This document shows, piece after piece, positions 7,847 to 57,265 of a DNA stretch of 64,000 nucleotides (position 1 is the first letter of the stretch; each line of letters begins with the position of its first letter). The notes below the pieces were generated by a model. It worked only from the letters and a program-made list of their open reading frames with translations, made no database searches and was not told the DNA's origin. The stretch is from assembly GCF_009914755.1 (NCBI RefSeq), contig NC_060930.1; one strand, 5' to 3'. A program made the translations under genes and the position numbers. This DNA comes from the human T2T-CHM13v2.0 reference genome, Homo sapiens.

Positions 7847-7947
7847 ACCTGGCAGTGCCAGCCACTGTTCTGATGTGCCGATTCATCCTGAACAGAGGCC
7901 TGGTGTTCTCGGTCCTGTTTGTCATTCTTTGAAAGTCTGGGCCTTGG
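7847..7947 (+). pseudogene. Orphan TREM3-type transmembrane exon with in-frame TGA
   Basis: ttggcag|AC CTG...TGG|gtgagt; translates (D)LAVPATVLMCRFILNRGLVFSVLFVIL*KSGPW, matching recalled mouse Trem3 VMVIVLTCGFILNKGLVFSVLFVFLCKAGPK and resembling the TREM1 TM at 61404-61509. Confidence 0.8.
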
Positions 7948-10408
7948 GTGAGTGGGGGCTGGGCCAGGCTTGAGGTGGAAGTGAATGAGGCAATGAGACA
8001 GCTACTGCAGATGCTGCTGTGGGAGGACTGCCTCCCAGGGGCTCCCCAGGGCTCTTGTCCCCTGACTCCTCCTCACTTCTGTTCTCAGGAGGTCTTTGGA
8101 CAGGGGCAGCGCCAGGCCCTGGGACAGGGGAAGGATGTGAACCGGCTGGGCTTGGTTCCCAGATGGACGACCTGAGCAGGAGGGCAGGAGAGGCTGTGCT
8201 GATTGGACCCCAGGCTTTCCTTCAGGGCAGGGAGGGCAGGCTTAGGCCTGGCGGGCTCAGATGGACCCTTTTCAAGCACCGTCCTTTCTCTCACTCCTCA
8301 GGTGAGGTGGCCTCCTGAAGAATCTCCACAAGGCCAACCCTGGAGACCAGCAGACTCTCCCTTCCAGGATCCCACAGGTGCACCCTTCCTGCCCAGCAAC
8401 ATCACATTCCCTGGATCTGTTCAGTGGTCAAGAAAGGCCTCCTTGACTACCTCCCTGAGCTCACTGCTTAGTCCCCCAACCCCAAGAGGGAGACATGAGG
8501 GTGGTCCTCAGAAATCACAGTGACGGCCATCGGTCTGGGCATTAAATAGAGCAATTGGGACTCACAAGGTGTAACTCGAGAGGGCCTGACATCCATTTCC
8601 CACTGCCTTCCTCACTCCCTCTGCTGGGATGTCTCTGGCCCTTGGGCAGACCCCGCACCGAGACACATACCTCTTCTGGGGAGTTTAAGTAATCAACTTG
8701 TTTTTAGAGCAGTTTAGGTTCTCAAAACAATGAGAGAAAGTACATAGAGTTCCCGTATACCTCCTGCTCCTCACATGCACAGCCCCCCACTATCCACATC
8801 CTGCCCAGGGGTCCGGCTGTTACAGCCGGCTACCCTACATTGAGGCACCCTGTCCTGTCATCAAGCACACAACCGTCCTGAGGGCTCACTCTTGCTGCTG
8901 AGCACACGCTGTCTGTGCTTTGACAGACGTGTGATGACATCAACTCATCATTGTGGGATCACACAGTTGCCCCACTGCCCTCCAAATCCCCTGTGCTCCC
9001 TCGTTCATCCCCTCTGTTTATAAATAGGGAAAAGGTTATTCCAAAACTGGCTTCAGTTCAGTGATTAGTGTGGAGGAAAAAGGGCTCCATGTAAAATAAA
9101 GCTTCTTCCCCAAAGCCTCGGAATTTTAACCCTCAGAGGGCAGAGGGCCCACGTTGGCTTTCCTTTCTTTACTTGGTCTTCTCTGCCCTCCAGCTGCAGT
9201 TTGGGAAGCCTCCAGGCCTGGAGCATGGAGAGGAGAAGAGGAAGGGTCAGGAAAGTCTGGTGATGACCCAAAGAGTTCAAGCTGAGGTTTCTCAGAGGGC
9301 ACCGTTGTGGGCTCTTCCGATGACACCCTGCCTGTCACCTGCAGCTTCCTCATGTAGCCTTGGATCTCCTTCCTGGTGGGTGCTCCTGACATCTCCTTCA
9401 GCCTCCAAGCCTTTCGCAGTCCACTTCCAGCTTCCTGCCATGCGTCCCTCCACCTCCAGCAGGCCTTTTGGATGGGATCTACAACCACCCATGCTGGGTG
9501 CCTCACATCTGTGCAGCCCAACATCTGGCCCACGGAAGCCATCCACTTCCTTCACCCCAACAAAGTCATGGAGCCTGGGGGCCCCCACAAGGTCACCTCT
9601 CCTCCATTCCACCATCAGGACAGCTTGCCGCCTGCTGTCTCTACCCAATACAGCTCTCAGACTGAATCCAACTCAGCTGCTACATCTCCCAGACTGCAGG
9701 GGCCACAACCATCTTTCCAAGTTGTGACCCTATCTCAAGCCTCTCCCTAGGTTTGAGATAAGATGCAGGAATCTAACCCTCTCCTCCCCCAGGGTCACAG
9801 CACAACTACCAGCTGTCTCCAAAAGTCCTCTCCCAATCTTCACACTCCTCACAACTTTCTACCCTTGATGTGTGTGAGGGATTCATTCCTCAAAGGTTTC
9901 AATACCTTTTGGCATGTGCTTCACACTGGCCTCCCACCTCACTCTGACAGATAGCATATATTTTCTTGGGACTTGCATTAGTCAAGATTTAGCTGCAAAC
10001 TACAAAATCCAAGCTACGGATTTTAAGGAGAAAGAGATTTTTAAAATCAAACATTAAATGCTTTACAGAATCAGATCCTGTGTAATTTCTGGGCATCACT
10101 CTTAAAGCCACAGGATGGGCTACTAAGGGACCACTGCCTTTGCCACAGTCAACACCCTTTCCAAATCAGGCAACTTTCCAAATCTGGAAGCTGCCATCAC
10201 AGCCCTGGCTGCAGAACCCCTCCATCTCACCCATAGTCTACCGGCACAATGGATGCCTCTCTTCCCATTCTAGCTCACTTCCTCATTTAAGTCTCATACA
10301 AATACATTGAATGGGTGGGACCTAAAATATATCTGGAACCCTAGCTGCAAAGGAATCAGAAATGATCTTGTAGACCTTTTACTATAGAAAGACCCATGAA
10401 AAAGAGGT

Positions 10409-10862
10409 GGCAGCCACTCACAGTGGCTCACACCTGTAATTCTAGCACTCTGGGAGGCTAAGCTGGGTGGATCTCTTGAGTCCAGGAGTTCAAGACAAGC
10501 CTGGCCAACATGGTGAAACGTTGTCTCTATGAAAAGCAATAATAATAATAATAACCAGGTGCATTGGTGTGTGCCCACACTCCCAGCTACTCAGGAGGCT
10601 GAGGTGGGAGGATCACTTGAGCCCTGGGAGGTCAAGGCTGCAATGAGCCATGATCACACCACTGCACTGCAACCTGGGCGAAAGTGTAAAACTCCATCTC
10701 AAGAAAAGAAAGAGAGAGAGAGAAGAAGAAAAAAGAAAGAAAGAAAGAAAAGAAAAGAAAAAAGAAGGAAGGAAGGAAGGAGAAAGAAAAAGAGAGAGAA
10801 GGAAAGAAGGAAGGAAGGAAGGAAGGGAAGGAACAGAAGGAAAGGAAGGGAAGAAAGAAAGA
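10409..10862 (+). mobile_element. Alu (AluJ-like) whose tail expanded into an (AAAG)n/(GGAA)n purine tract at 10701-10862
   Basis: Dimeric Alu consensus motifs followed by simple repeats. Confidence 0.85.
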
Positions 10863-12424
10863 GGTGGCAATGAATATATAGTGAGTTCACAGTGTCTACC
10901 TGAATACTCTCAGCCAAAACTGAGATCACAATAGTTAAAATTTATAAGTTTTGTTGTTTCTTTTGCTGTCAATGAAAGTCAAATATGACTAAGTGAAAAA
11001 TAAACATATAGTATTTGCTTTGTTATGTCAAATAAACGCTATTTGTAAAAATATAGTATTTGCCTTGTTACACCAAATAAACCCTATTCTGTAGTATAAA
11101 CGTTATAGTAACAAATTTTCATTTACAGCAATCAGTACATCGGACACTATGTGTGACATATCACACTGAAGGCATCAAATGATACAGATGCAGAGAATAA
11201 ATTCCTATTTTCCTCTTCCAGAATTTATCATACTTTTCTTAGAAACTTCAGTGTGTTTAAGAAAATGACTCTTATTACCATCAAGTGTTAGTAGGTGCTT
11301 TACACCTAGCCGTACTAAGATTTCTTAAAACTTTGCTGTTTGTTATGTACACGCTGTTTGTTATGTATCAAGTGATTATTCATATGCTTTGTGTAAATCG
11401 TTTCTATACATGTTAAAACTAATCTTTTACACTTAGAATGCTTTCAGATTCACAGAAGAGTTGTGTAGGTATTGCATACTTCCCTGATGTGCTATGTTCA
11501 ATGTCTTCTATTATTAATATAGTCCAATAGTATGCTACATTTCTCACAATTAATGAGTTGATATTGATACATTACTATAATTTTACAAAATTGATGAGTA
11601 GAACTCATATATTTATAATGCGTGGTAGGATAGTTTGATGTGTGTATTAACTGTGAAATTACTAAATCAAGCAATACCACATATACTTAATTGTTTTGTG
11701 GTGAGAACATTTAAAATCTATTTTCTGTCATTTTCAATTGTACAATTCAGAGTTATGAACTGCATTCACCATACTGTGCAATAGATCTCTTGAACTTATT
11801 TTTTCTGTCTAACATATTGTGTTTCTTCAACAATACCTACCCAGTTTGTCCAATTCCCAGCCTCTGGTAATGCCATTCTACTCTGTTTCTGTGGTAGATT
11901 TTATTAATTGAAGTCCTTACTTCATTCAGATTACCCTGGCTTTTACCTCATGTACTTTCTGTGCTCCAGAATCCCACCTAGGAAGCCACATTGCTTTTAG
12001 TCTTCATGTCTGCTTAGGCTCCTCTTATTCATAGCAATTTCTGAGAATTATTTCTTAGTTTTGATGGCCTTGACAGTTTTGAGGAACGCTGCTCAGGTAT
12101 TTTGTAGAATGTCCCTCACGTGGAATTTGTTTGATGTTTTTCTCCTGGGGCCAGCGGCTTTGGGGAAGGAGACTGCACAGCTAATTGCCCTGTCATCACA
12201 TCAAGTCAATGACACATTCTAACAACCTGAGTTATCCCTGTGGGTCTGCACTTTGGTTGCCTGGCTGCCACAGTAAGTGTCAGGTTTCTCCACTGTACAG
12301 TTACTCTTCTCTTCCTTCCCATGCTATCCTCTGGAGGAAAGTCACCTGCACAGCCCATGCTTAAGCCGTGGGAATTTATGCTTCTGCCTTGAGGGCAGAA
12401 TACCTATAAGAATTGTTTGCAATC

Positions 12425-12812: not shown

Positions 12813-13724
12813 GAATCCTTATGCATGGGATATTTGTCTATTCCCCCCCGCCAGTTCTTTATTCAGTCATTTACTTACATCAGCATGGACTCCTAGAGAT
12901 TTAATATATACATTGGGTAGTAATCCAGTACCACTTGGTTTTGTTGCTAGATAGTTCTCACTTCGGCCATTTTCTGTTTCTGTACATTTTACACATGCGT
13001 TGTTCTTTCATCCACTGATGTATTCATCCAACAAGCACTGATTGAGATGATCCCAAGCTACCATAACTGATCCACTCCTACCTGCCTTCCCCTCCAACTT
13101 TCCCTGACCAGCACTCTCTTTCCTCCCTGCTTTCCTGGCCCCACCATTTCCAGGGAACATCTTGTAATTCCTGGGATTAAAATCTGCCCTCTACAAAATG
13201 TCTCAGGGTCAAAACTCATCATCAACCCACCATGGCTAGACCAGAAGGACTCAGGGGTCTGGTCGTGCCTCCAAGGGCCCTGACCACCTATAGGAAGTGC
13301 ACAGAGAGAAGGAAAGAGGGATGACCCCAGCTTTATTCACCAGCTTTATTCTTGGCCATGCTGAGAGCTGCCCCTAGCAATAGAGGAGCAGTATGACTGG
13401 CTGGAAGGCATAAAGCAGCAGACATGGGGAGAAGTTCAGTGAAAGGCGGCAGAGCAACGCAGCAGGGCTGAGGTGCCCAGGCCCAGAGACAGACCCTGTA
13501 GCTGGTGGCCCCTTTCAAGGCCTGGCTGCCCCTCCTCCCCTGGTCTGCAGAGCCCGCCCTCCCAGGCCGACCATTTCCCCAGCAAGACACTGACTCTCTC
13601 AATTTTACCAGCTGAGAGACACTGGGAACCTGGGGCAGAATCAGACCCAGTGTCTGACTCCTTCTCCTGAGAGGGCTCCCTTTTTTCTCCTCTCCTCCGC
13701 TGTCAGAAACAGATTTGGGCTGGA

Positions 13725-13787
13725 ATGGCCTGGGGTGGGGTCCACACCTGCTGCTTCCACCTGTGCTGCTGCTGCTCCTGGCCTCAG
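13725..13787 (+). CDS. TREML4: TREML4 coding exon 1 (MAWGGVHTCCFHLCCCCSWPQ)
   Basis: ATG 13725, donor GT 13788; matches recalled human TREML4 N-terminus. Confidence 0.9.
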
Positions 13788-14010
13788 GTGACATGGAGGG
13801 AAAGAGTGCAGGGGGTGTAAGGAGTGGGATGAAGAATGAGTGGGGCAGGGAGCAGCATGGCTGTGTGACCATAGGACAGAATTTAGGGGCCCTCTTCCAT
13901 GTGTGGGCATCAGAACTAGTTCCCCCTCCCCTTCCCCAGCCTGTGATGGGGGAGGTTGGGTCCCTTCAGAGCTCTGACCTGGGTTTCTTTCTGCCGGTTC
14001 CTGGGTAAAG

Positions 14011-14341
14011 GGTGCTGTGCCTGAAGAACTTCACAAACACCCAGGACAGACCCTCCTCCTGCAATGCCAGTACTCACCCAAGAGAGGGCCCTATCAGCCC
14101 AAATCCTGGTGTCAGCAGACATCTCCAAGTCGGTGTACCTTACTTGTCACCAGCTCCAAGCCCCGGACAGCAGTTCAGAAGTCTCATTACACAATCTGGG
14201 ACAAGCCCAATGCTGGCTTCTTCAACATCACCATGATTCAGCTGACACAGAATGACTCGGGATTCTACTGGTGTGGAATCTACAATGCTTCCGAAAACAT
14301 CATCACTGTTCTTAGAAATATCAGCCTGGTGGTGTCTCCAG
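14011..14341 (+). CDS. TREML4: TREML4 exon 2, IgV domain
   Basis: GAVPEELHKHPGQTLLLQCQYSPKRGPYQPKSWC...DSGFYWCGIY...SLVVSP; acceptor taaag, donor gtgag. Confidence 0.95.
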
Positions 14342-14817
14342 GTGAGCTCTTTTCTTGAGGAAATACCTCTGTGCCACCCCCCAGGGACCTGAAGGAAATG
14401 TCATGCACCCCCTCCCATGCCTCTATCATCCCCCATCCTGCCAGGTCTTCTGCTGTGGTCCAAGGGGAGCAAAGATCCTGTCCCCAAACATGGACTCTCA
14501 CCTCTCCTCCACCCAGTACATCCTGGCCTCAATTGTTGGGAAGGTACCCTCAGAGGTCCCTGGACAGAGACACAGTCTCTCTGTCACTCTGCATCTCTCT
14601 TTGTCTTACACAGGCACACCCACAACTCTTCTTTTCACACACACACTAACACACACACACCAACAACTCTGTCATGCAGATCTTAGGCACAGACCACTCC
14701 TGGCTTAAGACATCCTGAGGGTCTGGCTCTGGGCCCCTACCTCCTCTTATGTATGGGGTAGACCCTACTCTCTTCTGGGCCCCTGGAGAGTCATTGTCTG
14801 CTGTCTTTTCTCTTTAG

Positions 14818-14868
14818 CCCCAACCACGTCTCCTATGTGGACTCTTCCCTGGCTCCCAACAAGCACAG
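14818..14868 (+). CDS. TREML4: TREML4 exon 3 (stalk)
   Basis: tctttag|...|gtagg; (A)PTTSPMWTLPWLPTST. Confidence 0.9.
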
Positions 14869-15358
14869 GTAGGTTGGAGGCCTCGGTGGGGGAAGATTAG
14901 AAGGGTCACCAGGCAGCTTGGGAGCCTCAGATTCAGGGAAGGGGAAACCAGGGAGGCCTGCCTCTGAGGACTGATCTCTTGGGGCCTGGGCTGTTGGGAA
15001 GCTACCTTCAGGGCCCACTGTCTCTTAGGGAGAGAAACATGCACTATCTGATGTGATCAGAAGATCGCCATGTTGTCACGATGATGGGAGGGTGTCCCCA
15101 GAGGGAAGTCCATATGGAACACCTTGCACACGTGTGTCCCAGCCCTCCTGCCCCTGTCCTCCCGCCAGCATGGAGAGGACAGTGCCAGACTTGACTTCAG
15201 CTGGTTATGGAGATCTCAGGCCTCAGTTACCCTTAGCCTGAGGGACCCTTAGGGGCTGCCTCTGGCCCCTCTCCCCTTCCTCTCACACTTTTGGGACCCA
15301 ATCCCATTCTCTATTCTGGTGCCCTGGGCAGCCACTGTCTTCTCTGTGTCCTCTTTAG

Positions 15359-15419
15359 TTCTGATCACTTCTCCAGAGGGGACCTCTGGCCATCCCTCCA
15401 TCAATGGCTCTGAGATCAG
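15359..15419 (+). CDS. TREML4: TREML4 exon 4 (stalk)
   Basis: ctctttag|...|gtagg; (V)LITSPEGTSGHPSINGSEI(R). Confidence 0.9.
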
Positions 15420-16113
15420 GTAGGTCAGAGGTTTTAACACTGGGAGGGAGGTCTTGGGAAGGGAGGGCCTGATTAGCTCCTGAACCTTGGAATCAAGTCC
15501 AGGGCACCCAGGGATCCTTCTCTGGTGGGTTGGGGCATAGGTTACAGCCATGGAGCCCCCAGGCCATGACTCAAAATTTGGTAGTGAGGAAAGGGGAAGA
15601 GGATGCAGGTTGTTAATTGTGGAGGAACCATGGAAAAGACAGTTCAACATGGATTTCTGCAATAAAACAAAATGGAACCCAGAAAATGTGGAAATTGGAG
15701 GCCATGTTGGTGTGTTGAGGGGTGAGTATGAATAGAGTCACTGCAGCCTGGGGCAGATGGTGGCTGGAGATGTCAGCCAGAGAAAGATGAGAGGCATACT
15801 GTTAAATTCTGCTTCTATTCTTGCAGTCATGGGTTTTGAGGCCATGACGGCCTCCCCTTCACTGGAGGAATAGGCTGCAATAGACTAGGTCACAGGTGCT
15901 CTAGGGGACCATGGAGCACAGCAAAAGACATGAGCGATTGATGAAAATAGACAACTAACTGCCAGAGCATTTGCTCCGTAGCCCTCTTCTCCTGCAAACT
16001 CCAGCACGGGTAGATTACAAACAGACTATCTCTCAGGGAGTTTGAAGGTGAAACCCTAACCAGAGAAAAAGTATGGCAGCTAATGGGGGTCCCTGGGGTC
16101 TTGTGCTCTAGGG

Positions 16114-16604
16114 CAGTGGTCCCCAAGCCTGTTAGAAATTGGGCCATAAAGTAGGGAGTGAGTGGTGAGCCACTGAAGTTCATTTGAATTACAGCCTCTT
16201 TCCATAGCTTGCATTACTGCCTGAGCTCTGCCTCCTGTCAAATCAGTGGCAGCATTGGATTCTCATAGTAGCATGAGCCCTGTTGTGAACTGTGCATGCG
16301 AGGGTTCTAGGTTGCACGCTCCTTATGATAATTGAATGGCTAATGATCTGTCACTGTCTCCCATCACTCCCAGATGGGACCACCCAGTTGTAGGAAATCA
16401 AGTTCAGGGCTCCCACAGATTCTACATTATGTTGAGTTGTATAATTATTTCATTATATATTACAACACGATAATAATAGAAATAAAGTGCACAATAAATA
16501 TAATGTGCTTTAATCATCCTGAAACCATCCCCGACTCTCAGGTCCGTGGAAAATTTGTCTTCCACAAAACAGTTCTCAGGCGCCAAAAAGGTTGGGGACT
16601 GTTG
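16114..16604. mobile_element. MER1A-like element, duplicate of 134-624
   Basis: Same TIRs, TSD CTCTAGGG/CTTTAGGG, same flanking context as the left copy in reverse complement. Confidence 0.85.
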
Positions 16605-16989
16605 CTTTAGGGCTTTTTCCTCTCATTTTTAACCCTCAACGGCTAGAGGATTTAGTCTTCCGTTCTTCCCCATTACCAGATCCGTATCTAATATGCCCAG
16701 TGGAATCTGAATTCACAAGCCAAAATACCTAGGCTCTTAGTAGAAGCACTACCTTAAAAGAATGGAAACACACCCAACAATAGAAACCTGTGAAGCAGAA
16801 CTATGGGAACTGCCCATTCCCCAGGAACTCTAGGTACCTATGATCAGTCTGGCTAAAGGGGTGAGGGGAGACGTCAACTATGTGGATCATGAGGACGATC
16901 CATTGGAAAAAAAAGCCAAATGCTGATCATAGTTGTGAAAAATATTATAGACCACAATATATGTGATGAAGGACGGCTGTGGCTGGCCA

Positions 16990-19900
16990 GTGAGCTGTAA
17001 GAAGAGTGAGGAATTCTCATGGAAGGTCCTGGAAAGAACTGGAGATTTAAAAATCAAAGAGAAGTTAGGAGACACGAAGGAGAAGAGTAGATGTACTAAT
17101 GTATGAGTATCAAGAACTCCTGTGGGAGATAAAGGATGAAAGAAAGAAATATTTGGAGAAAGAATCCAGGAAATTTTTTCAAAATTATAGAAGAAAAGAC
17201 CTCAAATTGAAAAGATTCATACATTGCCAAATAGGGGAAAACAGCCAACACACACACAAAAATACCTCTAGACCCATTATGTAAAAGGGAAGAACTTAAA
17301 AAGCAGAGGGAAATGTCTGCACGCTTTCAGATCACCTACAAAGTGATAAGAATTAGACTTCTTAAGAAGGACACTAGAGAAAAGAAGACAATTCAGTAAT
17401 ATTTCTAAAGTACTAAAGAAAAACTTTGTATCCAGTGTTTTGTGTTCAGCCAAATTGTCACTCCAATGTGAAATCATAAAACCTCTGGATTCTCAAGGCC
17501 TCAGAAGGTTTGCCACATGCAAACATCCCCACTGAAAACACTCCTGGAGGAAGGACTCAGCTAGGATGAAAAGTAAACCCTGGAGACGCTGCTAGAAGTG
17601 AGGGAGTAAGTGTGCCCAGCATCTTGGGAAAGTTTGTTTTTATCTTTTTTGATTTATAGGAATGGCAGCTAAGAGCAAAATGAAGAACAAGAGAAAATAC
17701 ATTCATGGTCATTGAAAAATAACATTCTAGACTAGCAGTCCCCAACCTTTATGGCACCAGAGACTGGCTTCGCAGAAGACAATTTTTCCATGGACTTGGA
17801 GGTAGGGGATGGTTTCAGGATGACTCAAGCGCATAACATTTACTGTGCATTCTATTTATTTATTTATATTATTATTACATTTTAATATATAATGAAATAA
17901 TTATACAACTCACCATAATGTAGAGTCTATGGGAGCTCTGAGCTTGTTTTCCTGCAACTAGACAGTCTTATCTGGGGGTGATGGGAGACAGTGGCAGATG
18001 ATCAGGCATTTGATTTTCCTAAGGAACGTGCAATCTAGAACCCTCGCATGCCCCATTCATAATAGGGTTCATGCTACTACGAGAATCTAAAGCCACCACT
18101 GATCTAACAGGAAGCGAAGCTCAGGCAGTGATGGGTGCGATGGGGAGTGTCTGTAAATACTAAGAAGCCTCCCTTGCTCACCAGCCACTCCCCTCCCGCT
18201 GTGCAGCCAGATTCCTAACAGGCCAGGAACTGGTACTGGTCTGTGACTCAGGGGTTGGGGACCCCTGTTCTAGACAATATCAACATGGGGTGAGAAGGAG
18301 AGACCAGAAGCCCATGAAAGAATGGTTGGGTACTTGTCTCATGAGAGGCAATATGTAGATATTGATAAGCTCAATGTAGCAATTGTACTAAATCAATGTG
18401 GATAAGAGTCTTCAGGTTAAGTCAAGAGAATGTATACCCTTTCATCCAGCAAAATAAAACTCTAGCCAAAGGAAAGTCGGAATCGAATTTTTAAAAAATA
18501 AAGCACAATAAATGGAAAAAATGAAATAAAAAGGTAGAATCAAGTCCTAAAATAAATGCAATTCCAATAAATTTAAGTGGATTAAACTCACAAAATAAGG
18601 ACAGGGACACTCTGAGTTTTAAAAAGTGCAATGTTATACTATCTATAAGAGATAAACATACAAAAGATTTTAAAAGGTTAAAAGTTAGAAAAATATATTT
18701 GACTATTAGGAAACAAAATAAACTCTTCTGGCACTCTTAATATGGAACAAAATAGAATTTAAGGTAAAATATTATGTCTATAACATTTGTTTATAAAAAA
18801 GACAAAGATATGTAATATATACTGATGAAAGATGCACTTGAATATGAAAATAGACCCATCATAAACGTATATGTGCTTAAATTTTGGCCATGAAATATAT
18901 CAAGCAACACTATCAGAAATGCAAGGAGAAATAAATTATTAGCCATTGTAGTTGGAGGTTCACATACCTCTCAGAGGATCAAAGACCAATGAGACAAAAC
19001 TAAATAGAGGGGTTTAAGTTTTAAGCCAAATAACTAATAAATTCCAGTATAATACCATCACATATTTATCAATGTTACATATTTTATTAGGTATTTATAA
19101 TAATATAGGATACATATAAACTATGCTTTTAAATATATAATATTTTCAAATATATAAAATATGTAGTTACAGATTGAAAAATGTTCTAAACTATATAAAT
19201 ATAGTTCTAAACTATATAAATATAAAACATGTATATTATGTATGTTTTATAAAATACAGTATTCATAAATATAAATAGTGTATAAGTACACATATATATG
19301 TTTATAACCCTCTACATAATAAAAACAGATAGTATACATTCTTTCAAATACATGAAATGTATTTACAAAAGGACACCTTGTATAAGGACATATAAGAAGC
19401 GTGAAGAAATTCTAAAGAATCAGTACGACACAGAATATATTCTCCAAACCTAACGCAATGACATTAGGAATGCATAAGAGAAATAAAATAGCACTTTTCA
19501 AACTATTTACTAATACATTCATATATGAATGTTTAAGTATGCAATAAAATATATTTTGATAATATGACCACTATATATCAAAAAGTATGAGGCATAAAAT
19601 ATTAGGGAGTAATTATTACCTTTGAATATATTTGTTGGAAAACATGAAAGATTTCAAATTAATGAGCTAAGGAAGCATCTCAAGAAGATGGAACGCGAGC
19701 ATCAGAGCAAACCCAAAGAATCATATAATTGAATGATTGAAAAAGGAGATCAAAGAAATTCATAATTCATTCTTTAAAAGTTTGCTAAGATAGACATGTT
19801 CTTGTCAAGACAAAAGAAGATAATAAATAAACAACAAATCAAAGAAAAAGAAGAAAATAACCACACACTGATTCTACAGAGATTTTAAAATAAATAAATC

Positions 19901-21200
19901 CTGAATAAAATCTTGTTGTTTTAAATCCTAGAAGCACACAATTTCCTAACAATATGAACTGCTAAGATTAACACAAGAAGAAACAGATTTCAATAGATTA
20001 ATAAATAGGAAAACTGAAACAGTTGATAAGACCCATCCTCACAGAAAATTCAAGACTCATGTGGTTTTCAGGTAACCCAATTTTTAAAGAAACATTTACA
20101 TTTCATGATTTATATTTCATACTAGATGTTGCAGAAAATAGAAAAGAAGCAAAAACAGCCCAGGTCATTTGAACAGGTTAGTGTCATCAAAATCTCAGAA
20201 CTAATTAAAGGAGATACAAAAAAATTAAATTATAGGTTCATTTCTCTGATGCACATGGGGTCCATTCCCTAATTACCATTAGCTAACTGAATTCAAGAGT
20301 GCATTGAAAAGAAGACTGATTATAATCGAGGAGAGTCTTATCACAAAACAAAAAGGATTTTTCAACTTTAGAAAATCTATTAATATAAGTAAACCAAATT
20401 CATAAACTACAGGAAAAAAGTCAACTGCTGCACAAAAAGCATTTGGGGACCTTGAGCACATTTATGTTATCTGAAAAAGCTCTTAATAAAATGGAAGTAA
20501 GAACAGATAACTTGGTAAAGATTGTACACCAATGATTACCATAAAGATTACTTATTGGAGGTATAAACTCAAATTAAGGATTTTCATAGCTACCATAAAT
20601 GTCTTCTAAAATATTAGAGATTCTGATCAATGCTTGAAGGAAAGGAAAACAGGTTACATGAAAGAAGATTAGACAAGAAGAGGAAAAACTGTCATGACTT
20701 GCAATTGATGGGATCATCTACCCAGAAAAAGAATGAGAAACAACAAACTATTAGATCTCACAAGAGAGTTTAGCAAGGCTGCCAGATACAAAATCAACTG
20801 ACATACATTACAAATAGATTTCTATGAGGAATAATCATTTAGAAAAATAAGATCGTTTTCATTACAGTCACAAAGTCTATAAAGTTTCTAGAAAGAATTA
20901 ATTTAACCAAGACCTGTTTGGAGAAAAGTATAAAATGCTAAAAAATGACAGGTGATCTGAATAAATAGAAACAATCCATGACTTTGGAAGAGGCAATAAC
21001 ATTGTAAATATGTCAATTTCTCCCAAATTAAAAAGTCTTTAAATGTAATCCCAAACACAACTTCTTTACTTTTGTAAAGAACTTGAAAAATTTACTCTAA
21101 AATTATATGAAAAAGGAAGATACATGAGTAGCTAAGTCAACCATGAAAAAGTGAAAATAAAAAGAGCTCACTGACTTTATCATATATTATGTAATACTGA
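16990..21200 (+). mobile_element. Highly decayed ancient L1 (L1M/L1ME-class) fragments in TREML4 intron 4
   Basis: A-rich strand bias with residual ORF1/ORF2-like motifs; boundaries approximate. Confidence 0.55.
17733..18267. mobile_element. Independent MER1A-like insertion
   Basis: TIRs and perfect 8-bp TSD TTCTAGAC at 17725-17732 and 18268-18275. Confidence 0.85.
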
Positions 21201-21785
21201 GGCAGAAAGTTACCAAGGCCACAAGAGAAAAGCAGATTTGCTGGGACAGGGTAGTCCTAGATCAGAGCTAGGCAGGCCAGGAGTGGGGGCTACACAGAGG
21301 GGATGAGGGAGGACCCCTGGGACCAACAGACAGGAGGTCTAGGTCTGTGCTGTCACCGCTCCTAAGGGTCTGGTCAGGTCCTGTGCAGTCTCTAGGCCTC
21401 ATTTCCTCAGATGTGATATCTTGGCTGGTCTTGAAGATGCACTGGGCTCTGATTCCTAAGGTCGGATGGTCCCATCCGACCTGACCTGGTTAGGGAGAAT
21501 TCCTGCTCCCCCAGCTCTATCCCTCCCCTTCCCTGAACTCCAATCCCTTGTTCTTCCCCTGGCCAGCTTTTTCCTCCGTTCAAGACTTTGAGGTTCCTTC
21601 TGACTAGGTCCCCTCTCAGTCCCAGAGACCTCTGTGGCTCCTGCCCCACACCCCTCTGTCATCGTTCAGGGTGGGCCCTTACGCAAACAGCTCCAGCTAC
21701 AAGGGGCCTGCCTGGCTTAGGGACACCGCAGGAGGTGGTGACATCCTGGCCCAAGTCCATCCTCCTTTCTCCTTCTTCCCTGCAG

Positions 21786-21882
21786 GAAATCAAGAGCCCC
21801 TGCCTGCCTTGGCTCAGGTGGCCCCAGATTCCTGGTCTTGGTGCTATGTGGACTCCTCCTGGCCAAGGGCCTGATGTTGTGA
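21786..21882 (+). CDS. TREML4: TREML4 exon 5 coding part (TM segment with Lys, stop TGA 21880-21882); exon continues to the donor at 21918
   Basis: cctgcag|G AAA TCA...; KSRAPACLGSGGPRFLVLVLCGLLLAKGLML*; exons sum to 603 nt = 200 aa + stop. Confidence 0.9.
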
Positions 21883-25847: not shown

Positions 25848-26216
<369 letters not shown>

Positions 26217-28553: not shown

Positions 28554-28625
28554 GCGTGTGTGTGTGTGTGTGTGTGTGTATGAGAGAGAAAGCAAGACTA
28601 TGTGTGTGAGTGTGAGTGTATGTGC
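28554..28625. repeat. (TG)n microsatellite
   Basis: Directly visible. Confidence 0.9.
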
Positions 28626-42843: not shown

Positions 42844-42971
42844 GAAACAGGAAACATTAAAAAGCAAGGTAATATGACACCCTGAAAGGAACACAATAAT
42901 TCTTCAGCAATAAATCCTAACCAAAAAGAAATCCTTCAAATCTCAGATAAAGAATTCAAAATATTGATTTT

Positions 42972-45900: not shown

Positions 45901-46423
45901 CTAAGTCTTGAAACAAAACCTCAAAATACACCAATGTTACATACACTGCAGGTTTATAGCAGCACAATTCACAATTGCAAAAATATGGAACCAGCCTAAT
46001 TGCCCATCAACCAACAAATGGATAAAGAAAATGTGGTATATATACACAATGGAATACTATTCAGCCATAAAAAGGAATGAAATAAGGTCATTTGCAGACT
46101 CACCTGGATGAATTCGGAGACCATTATTCTAACTGAAGTAACTCAGGAATGGAAAACCAAATGTTGTATATTCTCACTTATAAGTTGGAGCTAAGCTATG
46201 AGGACACAAAGACATAAGGATGATATAATGGACTTTGGGGGCTCAGGGGGAAGGATGAAAGGGTGTGAAGGATAAAAGACTATACATTGGATACAGTATA
46301 CACTGCTCAGATGACAGGTGCACCAAAATCTCAGAAATTACCACTAAAGAACGTATCCATGTAACCAAAAATCACCTGTTCCCCCAAAACTACTGAAATT
46401 TAATTTAAATTTAAAACACGAAA
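42972..46423 (+). mobile_element. L1PB-like element (5'UTR + ORF1 + 3' end, ORF2 missing) nested in the L1MA
   Basis: Perfect 15-bp TSD CAAAATATTGATTTT at 42957-42971 and 46424-46438; ORF1 start MRRNQKNNS; L1PB-type 3'UTR. Confidence 0.8.
44203..44565 (+). mobile_element. THE1 (MaLR) solo LTR
   Basis: TGATATGGTTTTGCTGTGTCCCCACCCAAATCTC...CTAATACA; 5-bp TSD CCACG/CCACA. Confidence 0.9.
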
Positions 46424-49400
46424 CAAAATATTGATTTTAAGGAAACTCAAGATGCAAGAGATGCAAAAGAAATCAAAATAAATGCAAAGCACTCAGAAAA
46501 TTAATTCAGGATATGAATGAGAAATTTACCAAAGCATAAATATCTACCTTAAAAAAAACCAGAAACTCTAAAACTAAAAAATTCATTGAAAGGAATACAA
46601 AATACATTCAAAATCTTCAATAATAGACTATGCCAGGCAGAAGAAAGAATTTCTGAACTTGAAGGCAGGTATTTTGAAATAATCCAGTCAGACACAAATA
46701 AAGAAACAAAATGAATAAAGCCTTTGAGACATTTGGGACTACATAAGGTGACAAAACTTACAAATTATCAGTATTCCCAGGGATGAAGAGAGATCCAAAA
46801 GCTTAATAAAACTATCTAATGAAATAATAGATGAAAACTTTTCAAGTCTAGCAAAAGATTTAGACATCTATTTAGAGGAGGCTCAACAATCCCCAGGCAA
46901 ATACAATGTAAAAAGTTTGCCACAGCATATTAAAAGCAAACTGTCTAAAGTCAAAGTGAAAGAAAAAAATCTAAAATCAGTAAGAGAAAAGATGTCTAAC
47001 CATTTATAGAAGAACCCCCATCAGTCTAACAGTGGACTTCTCAGCAGAAACCTTCCTGGCCAGAAGAAAATGGGATGACATACTCAAAGTGCTGATAGAA
47101 ATTTTTAAAAAACTGGTAGCCAAGAATTCTACATACAGCTAGATTAAGCTTTGTAAATGAAGGAGAAATAAAGTCTTTCCCATCCAAGCAAATGCTGAGG
47201 GACTTCATCACCACCAGAGCAGTCCTACATGAAATACTCAAAGGAGTCCTAAACTTGGAAGTGAAAAGCTGATATTAACCATCATGAAAACACATGAAAG
47301 TATAAAACTCACTAGTAAAGCAATTACACAAAGAAGGTAGAGAAAAGAATCAAATGACACTACTGCAAAATTTCACCAAACCACAAAGACAAACAATGAG
47401 AGAAAAAGAAAAAAACAAAGACTTGATAGAACAACTAGAAAATAATTAGCAATATGAGAGAAACAAAACCCCACATATCAATATTAACTTTAAATGTAAA
47501 TGCATTAAATGCTCCACTTAAATGATATAGATTGGCTGAATTAATTTTTTTAAACATGATTCGACTATATGCTGCTTACAAGAAACTCACATTATCTATA
47601 AAGACATATACAGACTGAAAGCAAAGTGTGGAAAAAGATATTCCATGCAAATGGAAACCAAAAGTGATCAGGAGTAGCTATACTTATGTAGTATAATACA
47701 GACTTTAAATGAAAAACAACATAAAAAGACAAATAAGGTTATTATATACTGATAAAAGGATTGATTCAGCAAGAGGATAAAACAATTCTGAATATATATG
47801 TACCCAACACTGGAGCACCTAGATTCATAAAACAAATAATATTAGACCTAAAGAGATAGACAGCAATACAATAATAATGAAGGCCTTCAACACCCCACTC
47901 ACGGTATTAAACAGTTTATCTACAAAATGATCTAAAATCAACAAAGAAACATTGGACATAATTGGACGTTAGAACAAATCAACAGACATCTAGAGAACAT
48001 TCTACCCAACAATTGCAGAATATACATTCTTTCAGCAGCCCTTGGAAACTTCTCCAAGGTAGACCATATAGTAGGCTACAAAATAAGTCTCAACAAATTT
48101 TTAAAAATAGAAATCATATGAAATATCTTCTATGATCATCAAAATTTATTCCACATCACAGTGGAATAAGTTTTTTAAAATAGAAATTATATAAAGTATC
48201 TTCTAGGATTGCAGTGGAATAAAACTAGAAATCAATACCAAGAAGAACTTTGGAAACTATACAAATACATGGAAATTAACACACTCCCAAAAAAAATCAC
48301 TGGACCAATGAAGAAATTAAGTTAGAAATTTAAAAACTTTTAGAAACAAGTGAAACCTGTTAGGTTTCTACCTAACAGAGATCTTGCCATTGCACTCCAG
48401 CCTGGGCAAAAAGAGCGAAACTCCATCTCAGGAAAAAAAAAAAAAAAAAAAAAAAAAAAGAATAAAAGAAAAAATAAGAAAAGCTCAGGACCGGATAGAT
48501 TCATAGCTGAATTCTACTAATCCTCCTCAAAAAGACATCTTCCAAAAAAATCAATGAGGAGAGAATTCTTCATAACTCATTCTACAAGGCCAATAGATCC
48601 CTGATACCAAAACCAGAAAAGGACACAACAAAGAAAAGAAGTCTACATACTAATATTCCTGATAAACATAGACACAAAATTTCTCAACAAAACACTAGCA
48701 AACAAAAACCAACAGTACATCAAAAAAAAGTACACGATGATTAAATGTGTTTTATACTAGGAATGCAAGGATGGTTCCACAATGCAAAGCAATAAATGTG
48801 ATATAGCACATAAACAGAATTAAGGACAAAAAATGTATTATCATCTCAATAGACACAGAAAAAGCATTCAAAAATTCAGCATCCCTTCACAATTAAAAAC
48901 CCTCAACAAACTAGGCATCAAAGGAACATACCTCAAAATAACAAGAGCCATATATGACAAACTCACAGCCAACAGACTGAATGGGGAAAAGTTGAAAGCA
49001 TTTCCTCTAAGACCTGGAACAAGACAAGGATGCCTACTTTCACCAGTCCTGTTCAACATAGTACTGGAAGTCCTGACCAGAGCAATTGGGTAAGATAAAG
49101 AAATAAAAGACATCCAAATTGGAAAGGAGGGAGTCAAATTACTACTCTTAGCTGATCACATGATCTTATATCTGGAAAAGCCTAAAGACTTCACCACAAA
49201 ACTCTCAGATTTGATAAATGAGTTTAGTAAAGTTGCAGGATGCAAAATAAATGTACAAAAATCAGTAGTGTTTCTATACACCAATAATGATATAGCTGAG
49301 AATAAAATAAAGAAGGCAATCCCATATACAATAGTTTCAAACAAATTTAAATATGTAGGAATAGATTTAACCAAGGAGGTGAAAGATCTACAAAACACTG

Positions 49401-49511
49401 ATGAAAGAAATTATAGATAACAAAAACAAATGGAAAAACATTTCATGCTCATGGATCAAAAAAATTAGTATCATTACAATGACCATACTTCAGTTAATAG
49501 GATTACTATTA

Positions 49512-49890
<379 letters not shown>

Positions 49891-52800
49891 TCAATGCAAT
49901 CCTTATCAAAATATCAATATTATTTTTCACAGAATTAGAAAAACATAATCCTAAAATTCACATGGAAACCAAAAAGAACCCAAATAGCCAAAACAATTCT
50001 AAGCAAAAAGAACAAAGCTGGAGGCATGGTGTTACCTGACTTCCAATTATATTACAACACTAATATAACAATAGTAACCAAAACAGTTTGGCACTGGTAT
50101 AAAAATAGACATGTAGATCAGTGGAACAGAATAGAGAACTTGGAAATAAAGCCACTTATTTGTGGCCAATTCATTTTTGACAAAGTTGACATGAACATAC
50201 ATTGGGGAAAGGACACCCTTCTAAATAAATGGTGCTGGGAAAATTGAATGTCCCTATGCAAAAGAATGAAACTGGTCCCCCATCTTTCACCATATACAAA
50301 AATAACTCAAGATGGATTAAAAACTTAAACATAAGACCTAACATTATAAAAATAACAGAAGAAAACCTAGGGAAAACTCTTCTGGACATTAGTTTAGGCA
50401 AAGAATTTATGACTAAGACCTCAAAAACAGAGACAACAAAAACAAAAATAGACAAATGAGACTTAAAAGCTTCTGCACAGAAAAAAAAAAGATGAACAAC
50501 ACTTTAGAATGGGAGAAAATATGTGCAAACTGTACCTCCAACAAGGGACTAATATCAAGAATATACAAGGAACTCAAGCAATTCAACAACCAAAAAAACC
50601 CATTAAACCCAAATAATCTCATTAAAATGTGGGCAAAGGACATCAACAGACATTTTATACCAATCAGAATGGCCATTGTTAAAAAGTCAAAAAAGAACAG
50701 ATGTTGGCAAGGATGCAGATAAAATGGAACTCTTATACACCGCAGGTGGGAATGTAAGTTAGAACAGCTACTAACAAAAAATAAATTTCTCAAAGAATTA
50801 AAAATAGAACTATCATTTGATCCAGCAATCCCAACTGTATACCTAACAAAAGAAAAATAAATCAATATATCAAAAGGATACCTGCACTTGTGTGTTTATC
50901 TGCACTCTTCACAATAGCAAAGATATGGAATCAACCAAAGTGTCCATCAACAGATGGCTGGATAAATAAAGTATGATATATATACACAATGGAATACTAT
51001 TCAGCCATAAAAATAATGAAATCATGTCTTTTGCAGCAACATGGATGGAACTGGAAGCCATTAGCTTAAGTGGAACAAGTCAGACACAGAAAGACAAATA
51101 GTGCATACTTTCACTCATAAGCTGAAGCTAAAATATTTGTACACATGAACATAGAGAGTAGAATAATAGACAATAGAGACTCAGAAGAGTGAGGGGATGG
51201 GGGTGGGGTGGATGATGATAAATTGCTTAATGGTATAATGTACATCATTCAGGTGATGGATACCCTAAAAACCCTTACTTGGACACTTTGCAATTCGTGC
51301 ATGTAATGAAATTGCATTTGTATCCTGTGAATTTATACAAATAATTTCAACATCTAAACTAACCAAGGGCTGATTAAAAATCAACAAGCGGAAGGAAGGA
51401 AGCCAAATAGAAAATGGTTAGAAATAGGTTATACATTGCAGTAAAAAACTATATGCCCAAGAAACTCATAAACAGATGTTTGATCGTGTTAGTTAGAGAA
51501 ATACTAATTTTAAAACATGCAACTGTCACTTTGAACTCATCTGAATGGTGAGCACATGGAAGGTGGATGACACTAGGAGTTGGTGAGAGTGGAGGAAAGG
51601 GGGATCCTTGAGCCCTGCTGGGGGGAATGCAACATGACCCAACATTCTGGAGAACAATCTGGAGCCTCTGTGGCATAAATATGTGGCTATCCCATGCTCA
51701 ATGTTCCATCCCTGACTTATGCTCTGTTATGCATACTATTTTTTACGTCCTGTTTAGAAAATATTTGACTTCTCCAAGGTCATTTTTTCTACATTTTCTT
51801 CCAGAAACTATATTGTTTTCACCTTTTATATTTAGGTCTATGATGCATTTTCAATTAATTTCATGTGCAGTGTGAAAGAGTTAAAAACCTATTTTGTTTT
51901 CTGGGTGGGTATCCAACTGATCATTACCCTTTGATAGAAACAACATCTTTTCCACACTAAATTGCAGAGGCCCTTTAGTGGCAGTCAAGTGACTGTCTAT
52001 GTGTGGGTATGTTCCTAAACCCTCTATTTTGTTCCTATTTTCTATTTGGCTTAATGCCAACTTAACATGTAGTTTAAAAAATTCTTATATGGCTCCTTCA
52101 AGAGCATGAATGGAAGTGTTTATTTTGAGGTATTTTGTTTGCTTGTTTTTCTGTTTGTATGCTTGTGTTGTTTTGTGGTAGTAAAGAGTTGAAGCAACTT
52201 AGGTTCCCATCACTAGGGGGAACAGAAAAATGAAATCCAATACTGCCCCTACATTATATGAAATCCTACCTAGCAGCCAAAAATTGAAGATTTAGATTTA
52301 CATATAGCAACAACGGATAGTCTCAGAAGCACAATGCTATCTGAAAACATATAACTAGAGTTATAATTTTCAAAAAAAAAGCTTAAACCATGAGACAAAA
52401 ATAAACACATGCTAAAAATTTTATTTAACTCATAATACATAATTTATTTGAGAAGATGTTATACCAGTTTAAAAATGGAAGTCAAAAGGCACAAATGTAT
52501 ATGAAGTAAAGGAATATTGAAATGAATTGTACGTGGAAGCATATCAGTTTGGGGTTTGCTTTTCCCTCTCAGCAGGGGAAGGAAGACAGGGCAGAGTTTG
52601 CTTGTCTATCAATAACCTGCCTTTGTGAAAGTTAGACTTCTCTCACAAAATGATTACCAGATAACATAAAGAAGAGAGTGCAATAGATAATGCAGAAGTT
52701 TCAGTTTAATTGCAGATTTTTTTCTACAACAGAGTGAAATGTGTAAAAAACAAAAGCACACAAAATCAATTCTATATATTTTCAAGAATCTACATGCATG

Positions 52801-55175: not shown

Positions 55176-55528
55176 CTTTGCACCAATACCAGCCAAATCC
55201 GATGGTGCAGGACAAAGGGGACCTGAGGAGACAGGTGGGTCATGCACTAATACGCCTCAAGTCCTGCCTCCAGAGCCCTATCACCACGACCCTGATTATA
55301 GCTTCCGTGGGATAATCCTCCAGCAGGTACCTCCCAGCCCAGGCCCAGTTTAGGTCTTTGTTTCTAGTCTCCATGAGCACCAGAGTCTCTGGGGGACCCT
55401 GGCTCCAACCCCACTGCCAGGCCTTCAGGCTGGAGGCATATTTCATGATGTTGTAAGAACAGGCCATGGTCAGATTCTGTCCTTCTAGCAGGCACATTTG
55501 CTCCTCCATGTCACCTACAGCTTGGAAT
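55176..55528 (-). pseudogene. TREM3 pseudogene IgV exon (frameshifts, stop)
   Basis: FQAVGDMEEQMCLLEGQNLTMACSYNIMKYASSLKAWQ...PETLVL...AGRYLLEDYPTE...RQDL/Y*CMTHLSPQVPFVLHHRIWLV vs recalled mouse Trem3 ...CFLEGENLTLTCPYNIMLYSLSLKAWQ...AGKYLLEDYPTES...; cccag acceptor, gtgag donor. Confidence 0.88.
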
Positions 55529-55984: not shown

Positions 55985-56285
55985 TTTTGTTTTTGTCTTT
56001 GTTTTTTGAGACAGAGTCTTGCTCTGTCACACAGGCTGGAGTGCAGTGGTGCAATCACTGCAGTCTTGACCTTCTGGGTTCAAGTGATCCTCCCATCTCA
56101 GCCCCCACCACATAGCTGGGACTACAGGCGTGTGCCACCATGTCCAGCTAACTTTTTGTTCTTTCTAGAAACAGGGATCTCACTATGTTGCCCAGACTGG
56201 TCTCGAACTCCTGGGCTCAAGCCATCCTCTCACCTCAGCCTCCCAAAGTGTTGGGATTACAGGTGCGAGCCATAGCACTTGGCCT
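55985..56285 (-). mobile_element. Alu (AluJ-like)
   Basis: Antisense dimer with T-rich tail. Confidence 0.85.
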
Positions 56286-57202
56286 CACACAGCTCTTTGT
56301 ATTAGCTCCTGGTGTCCCCAAGACAGATGCTCTTCCCATTCTTCTCTGTTTTCTCCCAAATGGGATGGATATTACCATTTGGTCCCAGAGGGCAGTCAAC
56401 CTGAACAGTTGTAGCTGGCACTAGTCTCTACCTCCTCTTCACCCTAAATATCACGGATCACCCTACACCTGGTTCCATCATCATCATCTCCCATCATAAC
56501 ATTTATTAAGCACTTATTAGGCCCTAAATACTGAGCCAAGGGCTTTCCATACATCCACTGTTTAATTCTTAAGACAACCCTCTGATACCTGTGAGTCGGT
56601 TCCATTTACAATGAGGAAACTGAGCCTAATAGAGGTTAGAAACCTTACTCAAGGTCACATACATAGAGTGTGGCTGAGACAGGATTTGCCCCAGCCCTGT
56701 CTGATTCCAGAACTCTTGTCTTCTTCTCCACATTCCCTTCTGTGCCCTGCTAGAGTGACTTCCACAGAAGTTTTGTTTTCATGTTACTGCCTGTCTTTTT
56801 GCTGTTATTTACCTTTTGCTCTACTAACGCCTCCTCTGCACAGTGAGTGAATGCTTTTTTAAGGGGAGACTCTGTCTCGCTTTTCTTTACATCTCCCAGG
56901 ATATCAGCACAGTGCTGGGGGATTGCTCTGCTGAATCCACCTAATTCTCTCAACTTCAAGATGCAGTAGAGGGACCTCCAGCTTCTGTTTCATCGCCCAG
57001 TCCCTCCTGGGTCAGGCTGGACAAGCACCGTCTGCATGCATTGCCTCCTTTCCCTTTCCCATTTGTACCACATTACCTGATCCCATTCCAGTCCATCCCA
57101 AAGATATAAGAGGAAACTCCCATTAGTGGGCACTTCTGCTGGGCTGTCTACATCCCTCTCCCTGGTCCCCTCTTCCCCAGCCTGCTTACCCACTCTCCTT
57201 AC

Positions 57203-57265
57203 CTGCAGCAGCAGGAGCAGCAGCAGCAGCAGCCAGGGCCACCCTCAGAGCCCTGCCCCCTCCAC
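57203..57265 (-). pseudogene. TREM3 pseudogene leader exon (GTG in place of a start codon, in-frame TGA)
   Basis: VEGAGL*GWPWLLLLLLLLLQ|gtaag; poly-Leu signal-peptide relic 1.7 kb upstream of the IgV exon. Confidence 0.7.

What the first reader, a model, noticed from the sequence alone, without database searches (positions are those of the whole stretch)
7847..57265. TREM3 appears physically split: its TM exon lies ~47 kb away on the opposite strand
Seen: TREM3-like leader (57203-57265) and IgV (55176-55528) exons on the - strand, with no TM exon found downstream on that strand. A complete AG/GT-bounded TM exon on the + strand at 7847-7947 reads ..VLMCRFILNRGLVFSVLFVIL*KSGPW, aligning with recalled mouse Trem3 ..VLTCGFILNKGLVFSVLFVFLCKAGPK (basic TM residue kept as Arg, Cys codon turned to TGA, phase-1 entry as expected after an IgV exon). 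Established: human TREM3 is regarded as a pseudogene, and the recalled mouse order is Trem1>Trem3>Treml4>Treml2, all co-oriented. Inference: a large inversion with one breakpoint in TREM3 intron 2 flipped [TREM3 3' half, TREML4, TREML2-like 5' part]. This would explain both the loss of TREM3 and why TREML4/TREML5P oppose the neighbouring genes. The TM exon sits just upstream of TREML4, where the mouse order predicts.
Basis: partly seen in the sequence, partly recalled or inferred. Interest (0 to 1): 0.88.

Follow-up and report, generated by a model that had tools for sequence, protein, structure and literature searches.

The report
Human TREM3 relic split across strands
The dead human immune-receptor gene TREM3 has its front half on one DNA strand and its membrane-anchor half 47 kb away on the other, next to a back-to-front duplicated block of neighbouring genes; the split likely came in several steps and likely after the gene had already died in monkey ancestors.

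Summary
Observation confirmed. The exon at 7847-7947 (+) is TREM3-type: TREM3 profile 42.5 bits against 14.4 for TREM1; no TREM3 TM exon was found on the IgV strand. TREM3's last coding exon follows at 8302 (+), annotated as exon 2 of lncRNA LOC105375055. Intact IgV+TM models in galago, colugo, rodents, bats and xenarthrans make the human state derived.

The reading needs correcting. The flipped TREML4-TREML5P block is one copy of a 22-kb inverted duplication (about 10% diverged; partner TREML3P-TREML2). It ends in unannotated relics of an ITIM-receptor IgV and a TREM1 stalk. Two predicted monkey models (capuchin, one unnamed) put the TM exon downstream of and antisense to TREML5P, unlike human. 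A walrus exon suggests the right junction lies behind an original TM exon.

Best reading (0.42): a simian inverted duplication carried a second TREM3 3' half, and the original was later deleted. The single intron-2 inversion stays possible (0.22). About seven point lesions and a damaged capuchin TM exon argue against the split having killed the gene. No outgroup genome was available. Not found in 10 literature searches. A known kind of event; moderate interest.

The parts
57203..57265 (-). TREM3 leader exon relic: start codon GTG, stop at codon 7, ends in phase 0 instead of 1
55176..55528 (-). TREM3 IgV exon relic: 353 bases against 354 expected, two internal frameshifts and a stop near the 3' end
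7847..7947 (+). TREM3 transmembrane exon relic: Lys to Arg, conserved Gly to Arg, TGA likely from a 1-base deletion
8302..8377 (+). TREM3 last coding exon (stop at 8316-8318 when entered in phase 1); annotated as exon 2 of lncRNA LOC105375055
   Evidence: annotation given with the finding
6547..11121 (+). predicted lncRNA LOC105375055, read here as the transcribed orphan 3' half of TREM3
   Evidence: annotation given with the finding
13961..36140 (+). inverted duplicate block, TREML4 intron 1 to TREML2-type intron 2; partner is window 2575 to -18257 on the - strand
1..2575 (-). start of the partner copy (TREML3P), lacking exon 1; junction at 2575/2576 against a 60-base L1 tail
13643..24182 (+). 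TREML4, the copy that kept exon 1 and the upstream flank
   Evidence: annotation
32740..34948 (+). TREML5P: TREML2-type leader region and IgV exon, no later exons
24700..25115 (-). 5S rRNA-derived insertion present only in the + copy; marks that copy in the unnamed monkey-like model P0189
36141..36455 (+). unannotated IgV relic of an ITIM-type receptor (51% to colugo P0178), whose leader, TM and tail relics lie at -29.4 to -32.3 kb on the - strand
37390..38840 (+). unannotated paralog of TREM1 intron 2 / stalk exon / intron 3 (K2P 0.188); homology stops near 38840, the right-hand junction
39270..40350 (-). segment S: two old low-copy repeat relics matching a panda TREM1 alternative last exon and a walrus TREM3 exon that follows the TM exon
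40375..51345 (+). old full-length L1 with nested insertions, between S and TREM3 intron 2
2576..6531 (.). left junction zone: L1 tail, a younger L1 with target-site duplication (2738-3531), AT-rich tandem repeat (3693-4598), old L1 fragment (4599-6531, -)

Best explanation
TREM3's leader and IgV exons lie on the - strand and its TM and last exons on the + strand, at the head of an inverted duplicate of the TREML4-TREML2 region; that duplicate likely arose in the ancestor of monkeys and apes, likely carried a second copy of TREM3's 3' half, and the original co-oriented TM exon was likely deleted later in the Old World line, when the gene was likely already dead. Shown: strands, single copies, the 22-kb inverted duplication, its junctions, the point lesions. 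Inferred: (1) the ancestral order TREM1 > TREM3 > TREML4 > TREML2 > ITIM gene, all one way; (2) about 40-50 million years ago a back-to-front copy of [TREM3 3' half, TREML4, TREML2, ITIM-gene 5' part with a TREM1-like stalk] came to lie just behind segment S, junction near 38840; (3) deletions then removed the original TM exon from between the IgV and S, the copy of S from in front of TREML4, TREML2 exons 3-5 from the + copy, the ITIM IgV from the - copy and, in great apes, exon 1 of TREML3P. The two surviving halves would then come from different copies. The relic makes no protein; its 3' half is predicted to be transcribed as lncRNA LOC105375055.
For: Duplication: one collinear inverted block, 13961-36140 against 2575 to -18257, K2P 0.07-0.14 in the blocks over 500 bases, with copy-specific insertions whose empty sites survive in the other copy. 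One of these is an LTR whose nearest genomic copies are 85-88% alike. Monkey models: capuchin P0183 runs TREML2/5P-type exon > IgV relic > antisense TREM3 TM exon (tail score 128, shuffles at most 53). Unnamed P0189 runs 5S-derived insertion of the + copy (80, 0 of 30 shuffles as high) > TREML5P leader region (78%) > IgV > antisense 8094 exon (60, 0 of 30) > antisense TM exon. Both fit a TM exon still on the IgV strand. Walrus P0071 has an exon after the TM exon that matches S on the - strand (60; 0 of 40 shuffles as high; 24-32 on the 9 nearest family copies), and S abuts the junction. Gibbon and colobus models join a TREML4-type exon 1 to the TREML3P-type IgV (P0122, P0127, P0129), so both copies once had it. 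Deletions are common here: several gaps of 0.2-1.8 kb inside the block. Early death: about seven point lesions give d = 0.088 (95% 0.035-0.18) against about 0.05 per copy for the duplication; read from its antisense peptide the capuchin TM has Lys to Gln and a changed donor; unnamed primate P0072 shares the frameshift at the IgV end; no tarsier or simian TREM3 among the named hits of 113.
Against: No second copy of any TREM3 piece or of S survives in human; the pieces are exactly complementary, which a rearrangement of one copy explains for free and this model explains only by two well-placed deletions. No deletion scar was identified. All cross-species strand evidence comes from predicted proteins, not genomes: P0189 is unnamed and its group is inferred from similarity, and the walrus match is one short peptide picked from many tails. 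The monkey models fit equally a human-like split followed by a New World re-inversion. In the IgV tree New World TREML4 falls outside the TREML4/TREML3P pair (support 81/84), which taken alone dates the duplication after that split unless gene conversion is assumed. The lesion clock is wide and its upper branch lengths are recalled. Monkey TM peptides are 72-73% identical to the human one by my count, between what an ortholog and a paralog would give.
Confidence: 0.42

Rival explanations
1. One reading: after a tandem duplication, one inversion with a break in TREM3 intron 2 (near 38840) flipped [TREM3 3' half, TREML4, TREML5P, relics] in the simian ancestor; New World monkeys later re-inverted the TREML4 block. 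The inversion could then have been the killing lesion.
For: One step gives the human order; every TREM3 piece is single-copy and complementary; the + block is internally collinear with the ancestral order (elephant-shrew TREM3 P0043 splices from the TM exon to sequence at 32572-32685 (+)); the lesion clock's interval includes the age of the duplication; the panda exon fits S in intron 2.
Against: Needs a second, New World inversion to fit P0183 and P0189 and a carnivore rearrangement to fit the walrus exon. No reciprocal junction or broken repeat half was found.
Confidence: 0.22
2. TREM3's own TM piece was moved, but late: the TREML4 block was inverted first in simians with TREM3 left whole, and an Old World inversion series or inverted transposition then cut intron 2 and carried the TM piece to the far end of the block. 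The gene was already dead.
For: Fits the monkey models, the walrus exon and the single-copy, complementary pieces at once.
Against: Needs three further breakpoints or breakpoint reuse; no junction was recognised between the last exon and the TREML4 promoter.
Confidence: 0.24
3. The + strand exon belongs to another relic (a TREM1-like or TREML gene) or the arrangement is an assembly artefact.
For: A TREM1 stalk paralog does lie on the + strand at 38 kb; the TM tree has only 29 columns and does not recover TREM3 as one clade.
Against: Profile and pairwise scores all favour TREM3; the intron sequence before the exon and the exon after it match TREM3 of tree shrew, xenarthrans, pangolin and bats; a chimpanzee model shows the same strand relation as human (P0120).
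Confidence: 0.03

Closest known systems
Mouse Trem3 and its mammalian orthologs (DAP12-coupled single-IgV receptor)
   Same: Leader, IgV, TM exon with the charged-residue motif and short last exon all have a counterpart here. Papers state that human TREM3 is a pseudogene or absent in primates (PMC6629955, PMC5332401, PMC4855714; passages read).
   Different: Exons on opposite strands 47 kb apart, start codon lost, stops and frameshifts in three exons. The passages read say nothing on the structure of the relic. A galago model is intact (P0009), so 'not in primates' is too broad if that model is right.
TREML3P and TREML5P, annotated pseudogenes of the human TREM cluster
   Same: Both are parts of the block described here.
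   Different: The annotation lists them as separate genes; here they are the two ends of one 22-kb inverted duplication.
Treml6/Treml7/Treml8 ITIM receptors between Treml2 and Trem2 (PMC4855714, Results part 1 read)
   Same: Relics of a leader, TM and tail lie in that position on the - strand and match a colugo ITIM-type model.
   Different: The IgV exon survives only in the inverted block, 65 kb away on the other strand; which of Treml6, 7 or 8 it is was not tested.
Pseudogenes broken by inversion or segmental duplication in immune gene clusters (general class; from my own knowledge)
   Same: Duplication, inversion and deletion shuffling exons of paralogs.
   Different: Nothing mechanistically new was shown; the halves may come from two copies rather than one cut gene.

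Membership tests
TREM3 (ortholog or in-paralog) for the 7847 exon | TM segment closer to TREM3 than to TREM1, TREML4 or NCR2 | tested here: met
   42.5 against 14.4 bits; 21 of 21 TREM3 segments outscore 21 of 21 others; group labels were mine
TREM3 (ortholog or in-paralog) for the 7847 exon | flanked by TREM3 intron-2 sequence and followed by TREM3's last exon | tested here: met
   tree-shrew extension best at 7725 (+); pangolin and bat tails best at 8296-8336 (+); armadillo extension not above shuffles (2 of 40)
TREM3 (ortholog or in-paralog) for the 7847 exon | phase-1 entry and AG/GT ends | tested here: met
Functional DAP12-coupled TREM receptor | open frame from leader to tail on one strand | tested here: not met
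Inverted segmental duplication | long collinear opposite-strand copy including introns and intergenic DNA, with copy-specific insertions | tested here: met
   at 81-93% identity most of it is below the usual 90% catalogue cut-off (cut-off recalled)
Gene split by one inversion in intron 2 | both halves from the same gene copy, intron halves abutting in an outgroup | not testable with these tools
   no other mammalian genome was available
Gene split by one inversion in intron 2 | reciprocal junctions or a repeat broken in two | tested here: inconclusive
   no matching halves found; later deletion could hide them
Gene killed by the rearrangement | split shared by all lineages that lack the gene and older than the point lesions | tested here: inconclusive
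   lean against; indirect only
Treml7/8-like ITIM receptor for the 36.1-kb relic | closest to an ITIM-type TREM model, with remaining exons between TREML2 and TREM2 | tested here: met
   51% to P0178 against 38% to NCR2; leader (E 0.06) and tail (E 0.32) matches are weak, TM E 4e-5

The most novel reading that the evidence does not exclude
One inverted duplication in the simian ancestor broke two receptors at once, activating TREM3 and the inhibitory Treml7/8-like gene, leaving each with exons on both strands, and so produced the two main mouse-human differences of the TREM cluster in a single event; the block has since flipped again in at least one monkey lineage.
Probability: 0.13. Interest if true: 0.6.

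Novelty: new member of a known kind. Interest (0 to 1): 0.4.

Why it matters
The lack of human TREM3 is the stated reason for using Trem1/3 double-knockout mice as the model of human TREM1 loss (PMC6629955), yet the passages read only call it a pseudogene. This maps where its pieces are, identifies an 'uncharacterized' lncRNA and an annotated enhancer region as its 3' half, shows TREML3P and TREML5P to be two ends of one inverted duplication, and finds the missing ITIM-receptor and a TREM1 stalk relic. It makes the date and cause of the loss directly testable with existing primate assemblies. It does not point to a new function or mechanism.

Tried and rejected
Recombination between the two opposed L1s (4599-6531 and 40375-51345) as the cause: they are only 68-74% alike, no closer than unrelated copies, and the right 3' end goes with the right body; both stop or break at about the same L1 position, which I leave as coincidence. 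The rest of the L1 whose 60-base tail sits at 2576 was not found in the window. The missing half of a truncated repeat at about 39270 was not found. A one-step tandem duplication of everything from TREM1 to the ITIM gene: the TREM1 paralog (0.188) is about twice as diverged as the block core (0.114), so two events are likelier. Atlas search of the IgV relic gave only generic V-set clusters under 0.9. A genome search with the walrus tail returned nothing, not even this locus, so it shows nothing. The TM tree is too short to resolve TREM3. Three of the seven proteins from the last search (P0188, P0190, P0191) are antisense frames over a TM exon alone and two (P0186, P0187) are human-like; they add nothing on other lineages. 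Earlier findings could not be consulted. Literature: 10 searches; the four that combined TREM3 or TREML4 with inversion, gene loss or adjacency returned 0 papers. Allcock 2003 and Chung 2002 were seen only as references, Colonna 2023 is not held, and the figure and supplement of PMC4855714 could not be seen; any of these may describe the relic or the gene orientations.
Full report
What is there. The window holds a TREM3 leader (57203-57265) and IgV exon (55176-55528) on the - strand and an AG/GT-bounded TM exon at 7847-7947 on the + strand. A search with the IgV frame returned 28 proteins, most named TREM3-like or TREM1-like, 61-70% identical. Mapped back, their leaders fall at 57.2 kb (-), their IgV at 55.3 kb (-) and, for those with the short TREM3 architecture, their TM best at 7846-7950 (+) (the middle of that output was cut).

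The exon is TREM3's type. A profile of 21 TREM3 TM segments scores 42.5 bits there and 19.4 on TREM1's TM exon; a TREM1 profile scores 14.4 and 50.6. All 21 TREM3 segments outscore all 21 others pairwise; 7 of 26 chosen non-TREM3 proteins yielded no segment and were left out, and the labels were mine. In a 29-column tree the exon falls outside the supported TREM1 (98/89) and TREML4/NCR2 (100/99) groups, but TREM3 is not resolved. The flanks agree. Intron sequence translated in a tree-shrew model maps to 7725 (+) (52; 0 of 40 shuffles as high). The exon at 8302, entered in phase 1, reads GEVAS-stop, against GEAAS in sloth and armadillo, DKAAS in tree shrew and GRAAS in hare, and it is the best window hit for pangolin and bat tails. 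That exon is annotated as exon 2 of lncRNA LOC105375055, which I therefore read as the orphan 3' half. No TREM3 TM exon was found on the - strand in the window or 150 kb of flanks, and neither half has a second copy in the genome.

The human state is derived. Single predicted proteins with IgV and TM exist for galago, colugo, tree shrew, rodents, hare, bats, pangolin, xenarthrans and elephant shrew. Fused models give the strand of neighbours: mole TREM1+TREM3 (P0030, P0031), hedgehog and colugo TREM3+TREML4 (P0114, P0003, P0026), elephant shrew TREM3 into the TREML2 5' region (P0043). Among the named hits of 113 (8000 candidates scored) the primates with a TREM3-type IgV are galago (intact) and mouse lemur (frameshifted at other places than human); none is a tarsier or simian.

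The flipped block is a duplicate. Window 13961-36140 (+) aligns collinearly with 2575 to -18257 (-): TREML4-TREML5P against TREML3P-TREML2. K2P is 0.114 in the 6.4-kb core, 0.07-0.14 in other blocks over 500 bases and 0.18-0.22 in three short ones. Several repeats sit in one copy with an empty site in the other, among them an LTR with nearest genomic copies at 85-88%. Repeat family names in my notes (THE1, AluS, L1PA, L1MA, MER) are by eye and recalled, as is the conversion to 40-50 million years. Beyond the block lie an IgV relic (36141-36455) and a paralog of TREM1's stalk exon with introns (37390-38840, K2P 0.188), both on + and unannotated. The IgV is 51% identical to a colugo ITIM-type model whose leader, TM and tail map downstream of TREML2 on - (leader and tail matches weak), so a second gene is also spread over both strands. 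Homology to TREM1 stops near 38840; then come segment S, an 11-kb nested L1 and TREM3 intron 2.

Other primates, read through predicted proteins. A chimpanzee model splices the antisense TM exon to a TREML3P-type IgV, as the human order allows (P0120). Gibbon and colobus models give the TREML3P-type IgV an exon 1, which human TREML3P lacks. Capuchin P0183 runs TREML2/5P-type exon, IgV relic, antisense TM exon. An unnamed protein, 1 of 7 hits of a search with the antisense frame, runs from the 5S-derived insertion of the + copy through TREML5P's leader and IgV into two antisense TREM3 exons; its similarity suggests a New World monkey. In human the TM exon is upstream of and on the same strand as TREML5P, so these species differ. 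Either their TM exon is still on the IgV strand, or they re-inverted the block. A walrus TREM3 model ends, after the TM exon, in an exon matching S on - (60 against at most 53 in 40 shuffles and 24-32 on 9 family copies). A panda TREM1 alternative exon matches the adjacent relic (104 against 50; this locus ranks 4th of 53 genomic matches). If S lay behind the TM exon in the ancestor, the junction at 38840 is behind, not inside, TREM3, and a TM exon was lost from between the IgV and S.

Was the split the cause? The relic has a lost start codon, a leader stop, a leader/IgV phase mismatch, two frameshifts and a stop in the IgV, and the TM lesion: seven, or eight if the phase mismatch is two events. 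With local rates (1235 substitutions and 88 frameshifting indels in 12813 aligned sites; 79 lesions per unit distance) seven lesions give d = 0.088, 95% 0.035-0.18, against about 0.05 per copy for the duplication. An unnamed primate IgV 87% identical to human shares the last frameshift but not the earlier one or the stop (P0072). The capuchin TM exon, read by me from its antisense peptide, has lost the lysine and the donor. The gene was thus probably dead in the simian ancestor; a causal role survives only if the split is simian-wide and came first (about 0.12).

Weighing. Duplicate-then-delete explains both monkey models, the walrus exon, exon 1 on both copies and the place of S, at the price of two deletions in a region where deletions are frequent (0.42). 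Against it, every TREM3 piece is single-copy and complementary, no scar was found, and the TREML4 IgV tree puts New World monkeys outside the human pair (81/84). A late move of TREM3's own TM piece needs no second copy but three more breakpoints (0.24). These odds are my judgement, not a computation. Recombination between the flanking L1s is not supported.

What is known. Passages read in PMC6629955, PMC5332401, PMC4855714, PMC5541421 and PMC10235508 say that TREM3 is a pseudogene in humans or mouse-only, or list the cluster, without structure. Passages of PMC4637344 and of bioRxiv 10.64898/2026.05.21.726777 (no occurrence of 'inversion') add nothing on this. Ten searches found no description of the split or of the inverted duplication; other listed papers were seen as listings only. 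The primary papers on the cluster were not available, so absence from print is not established.

Verdict. A real, apparently undescribed piece of anatomy in a well-studied human locus, of a known kind. The mechanism is a multi-step one that outgroup assemblies can settle in a day. Interest 0.40.

Noticed in passing
window 13725-13787 and 13987-14011 (+): The annotated human TREML4 leader is a shifted frame of the hydrophobic signal peptide seen in monkey, tarsier and loris TREML4 models; the human gene uses a later acceptor in exon 2. The TM segment also ends at a stop inside the hydrophobic stretch in simian models.
   Followed up: no
window 52688-53391 (-): The alternative last exon of TREM1 lies inside TREM3 intron 2, so that transcript reads through the TREM3 leader and IgV; an orangutan isoform uses the same exon.
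   Followed up: partly
window 57201-57266 and 59153-60107 (-): A silvery gibbon model (P0137) runs from TREM1 3' sequence through the TREM3 leader into a TREML3P-type IgV; no gibbon TREML4-type IgV was among the 120 listed hits, so gibbons may lack the + block.
   Followed up: no
window 7640-9392 (-): A human-like model (P0187) starts antisense in the TREM3 3' half and splices into TREML3P, suggesting longer TREML3P transcripts.
   Followed up: no
window 2198-2575 (-) and 13961-16735 (+): The inner 2.6 kb of the repeats are more alike (K2P 0.07-0.09) than the core, and ape IgV sequences are mosaics of the two types, suggesting gene conversion.
   Followed up: partly
L013 and L012, window -29406 to -32326 (-): Leader, TM and tail relics of an ITIM-type receptor at the start of lncRNA LOC107986595; only about 1 kb separates leader and TM, the IgV being gone.
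   Followed up: partly
proteins P0001, P0005, P0051, P0065: Elephant, sirenian, leaf-nosed bat and porcupine models join a TREM3-type IgV to a TREM1-type stalk and TM, so TREM1/TREM3 exon swapping seems to recur in mammals.
   Followed up: no
window 3693-4598: AT-rich tandem array (27-base unit, about 31 copies, then AT) cuts the old L1 at about the position where the right-hand L1 has a 110-base gap.
   Followed up: partly
protein P0106/P0107 (mouse lemur): Mouse lemur TREM3 appears broken by frameshifts different from the human ones while galago's is intact, pointing to an independent loss in lemurs.
   Followed up: partly
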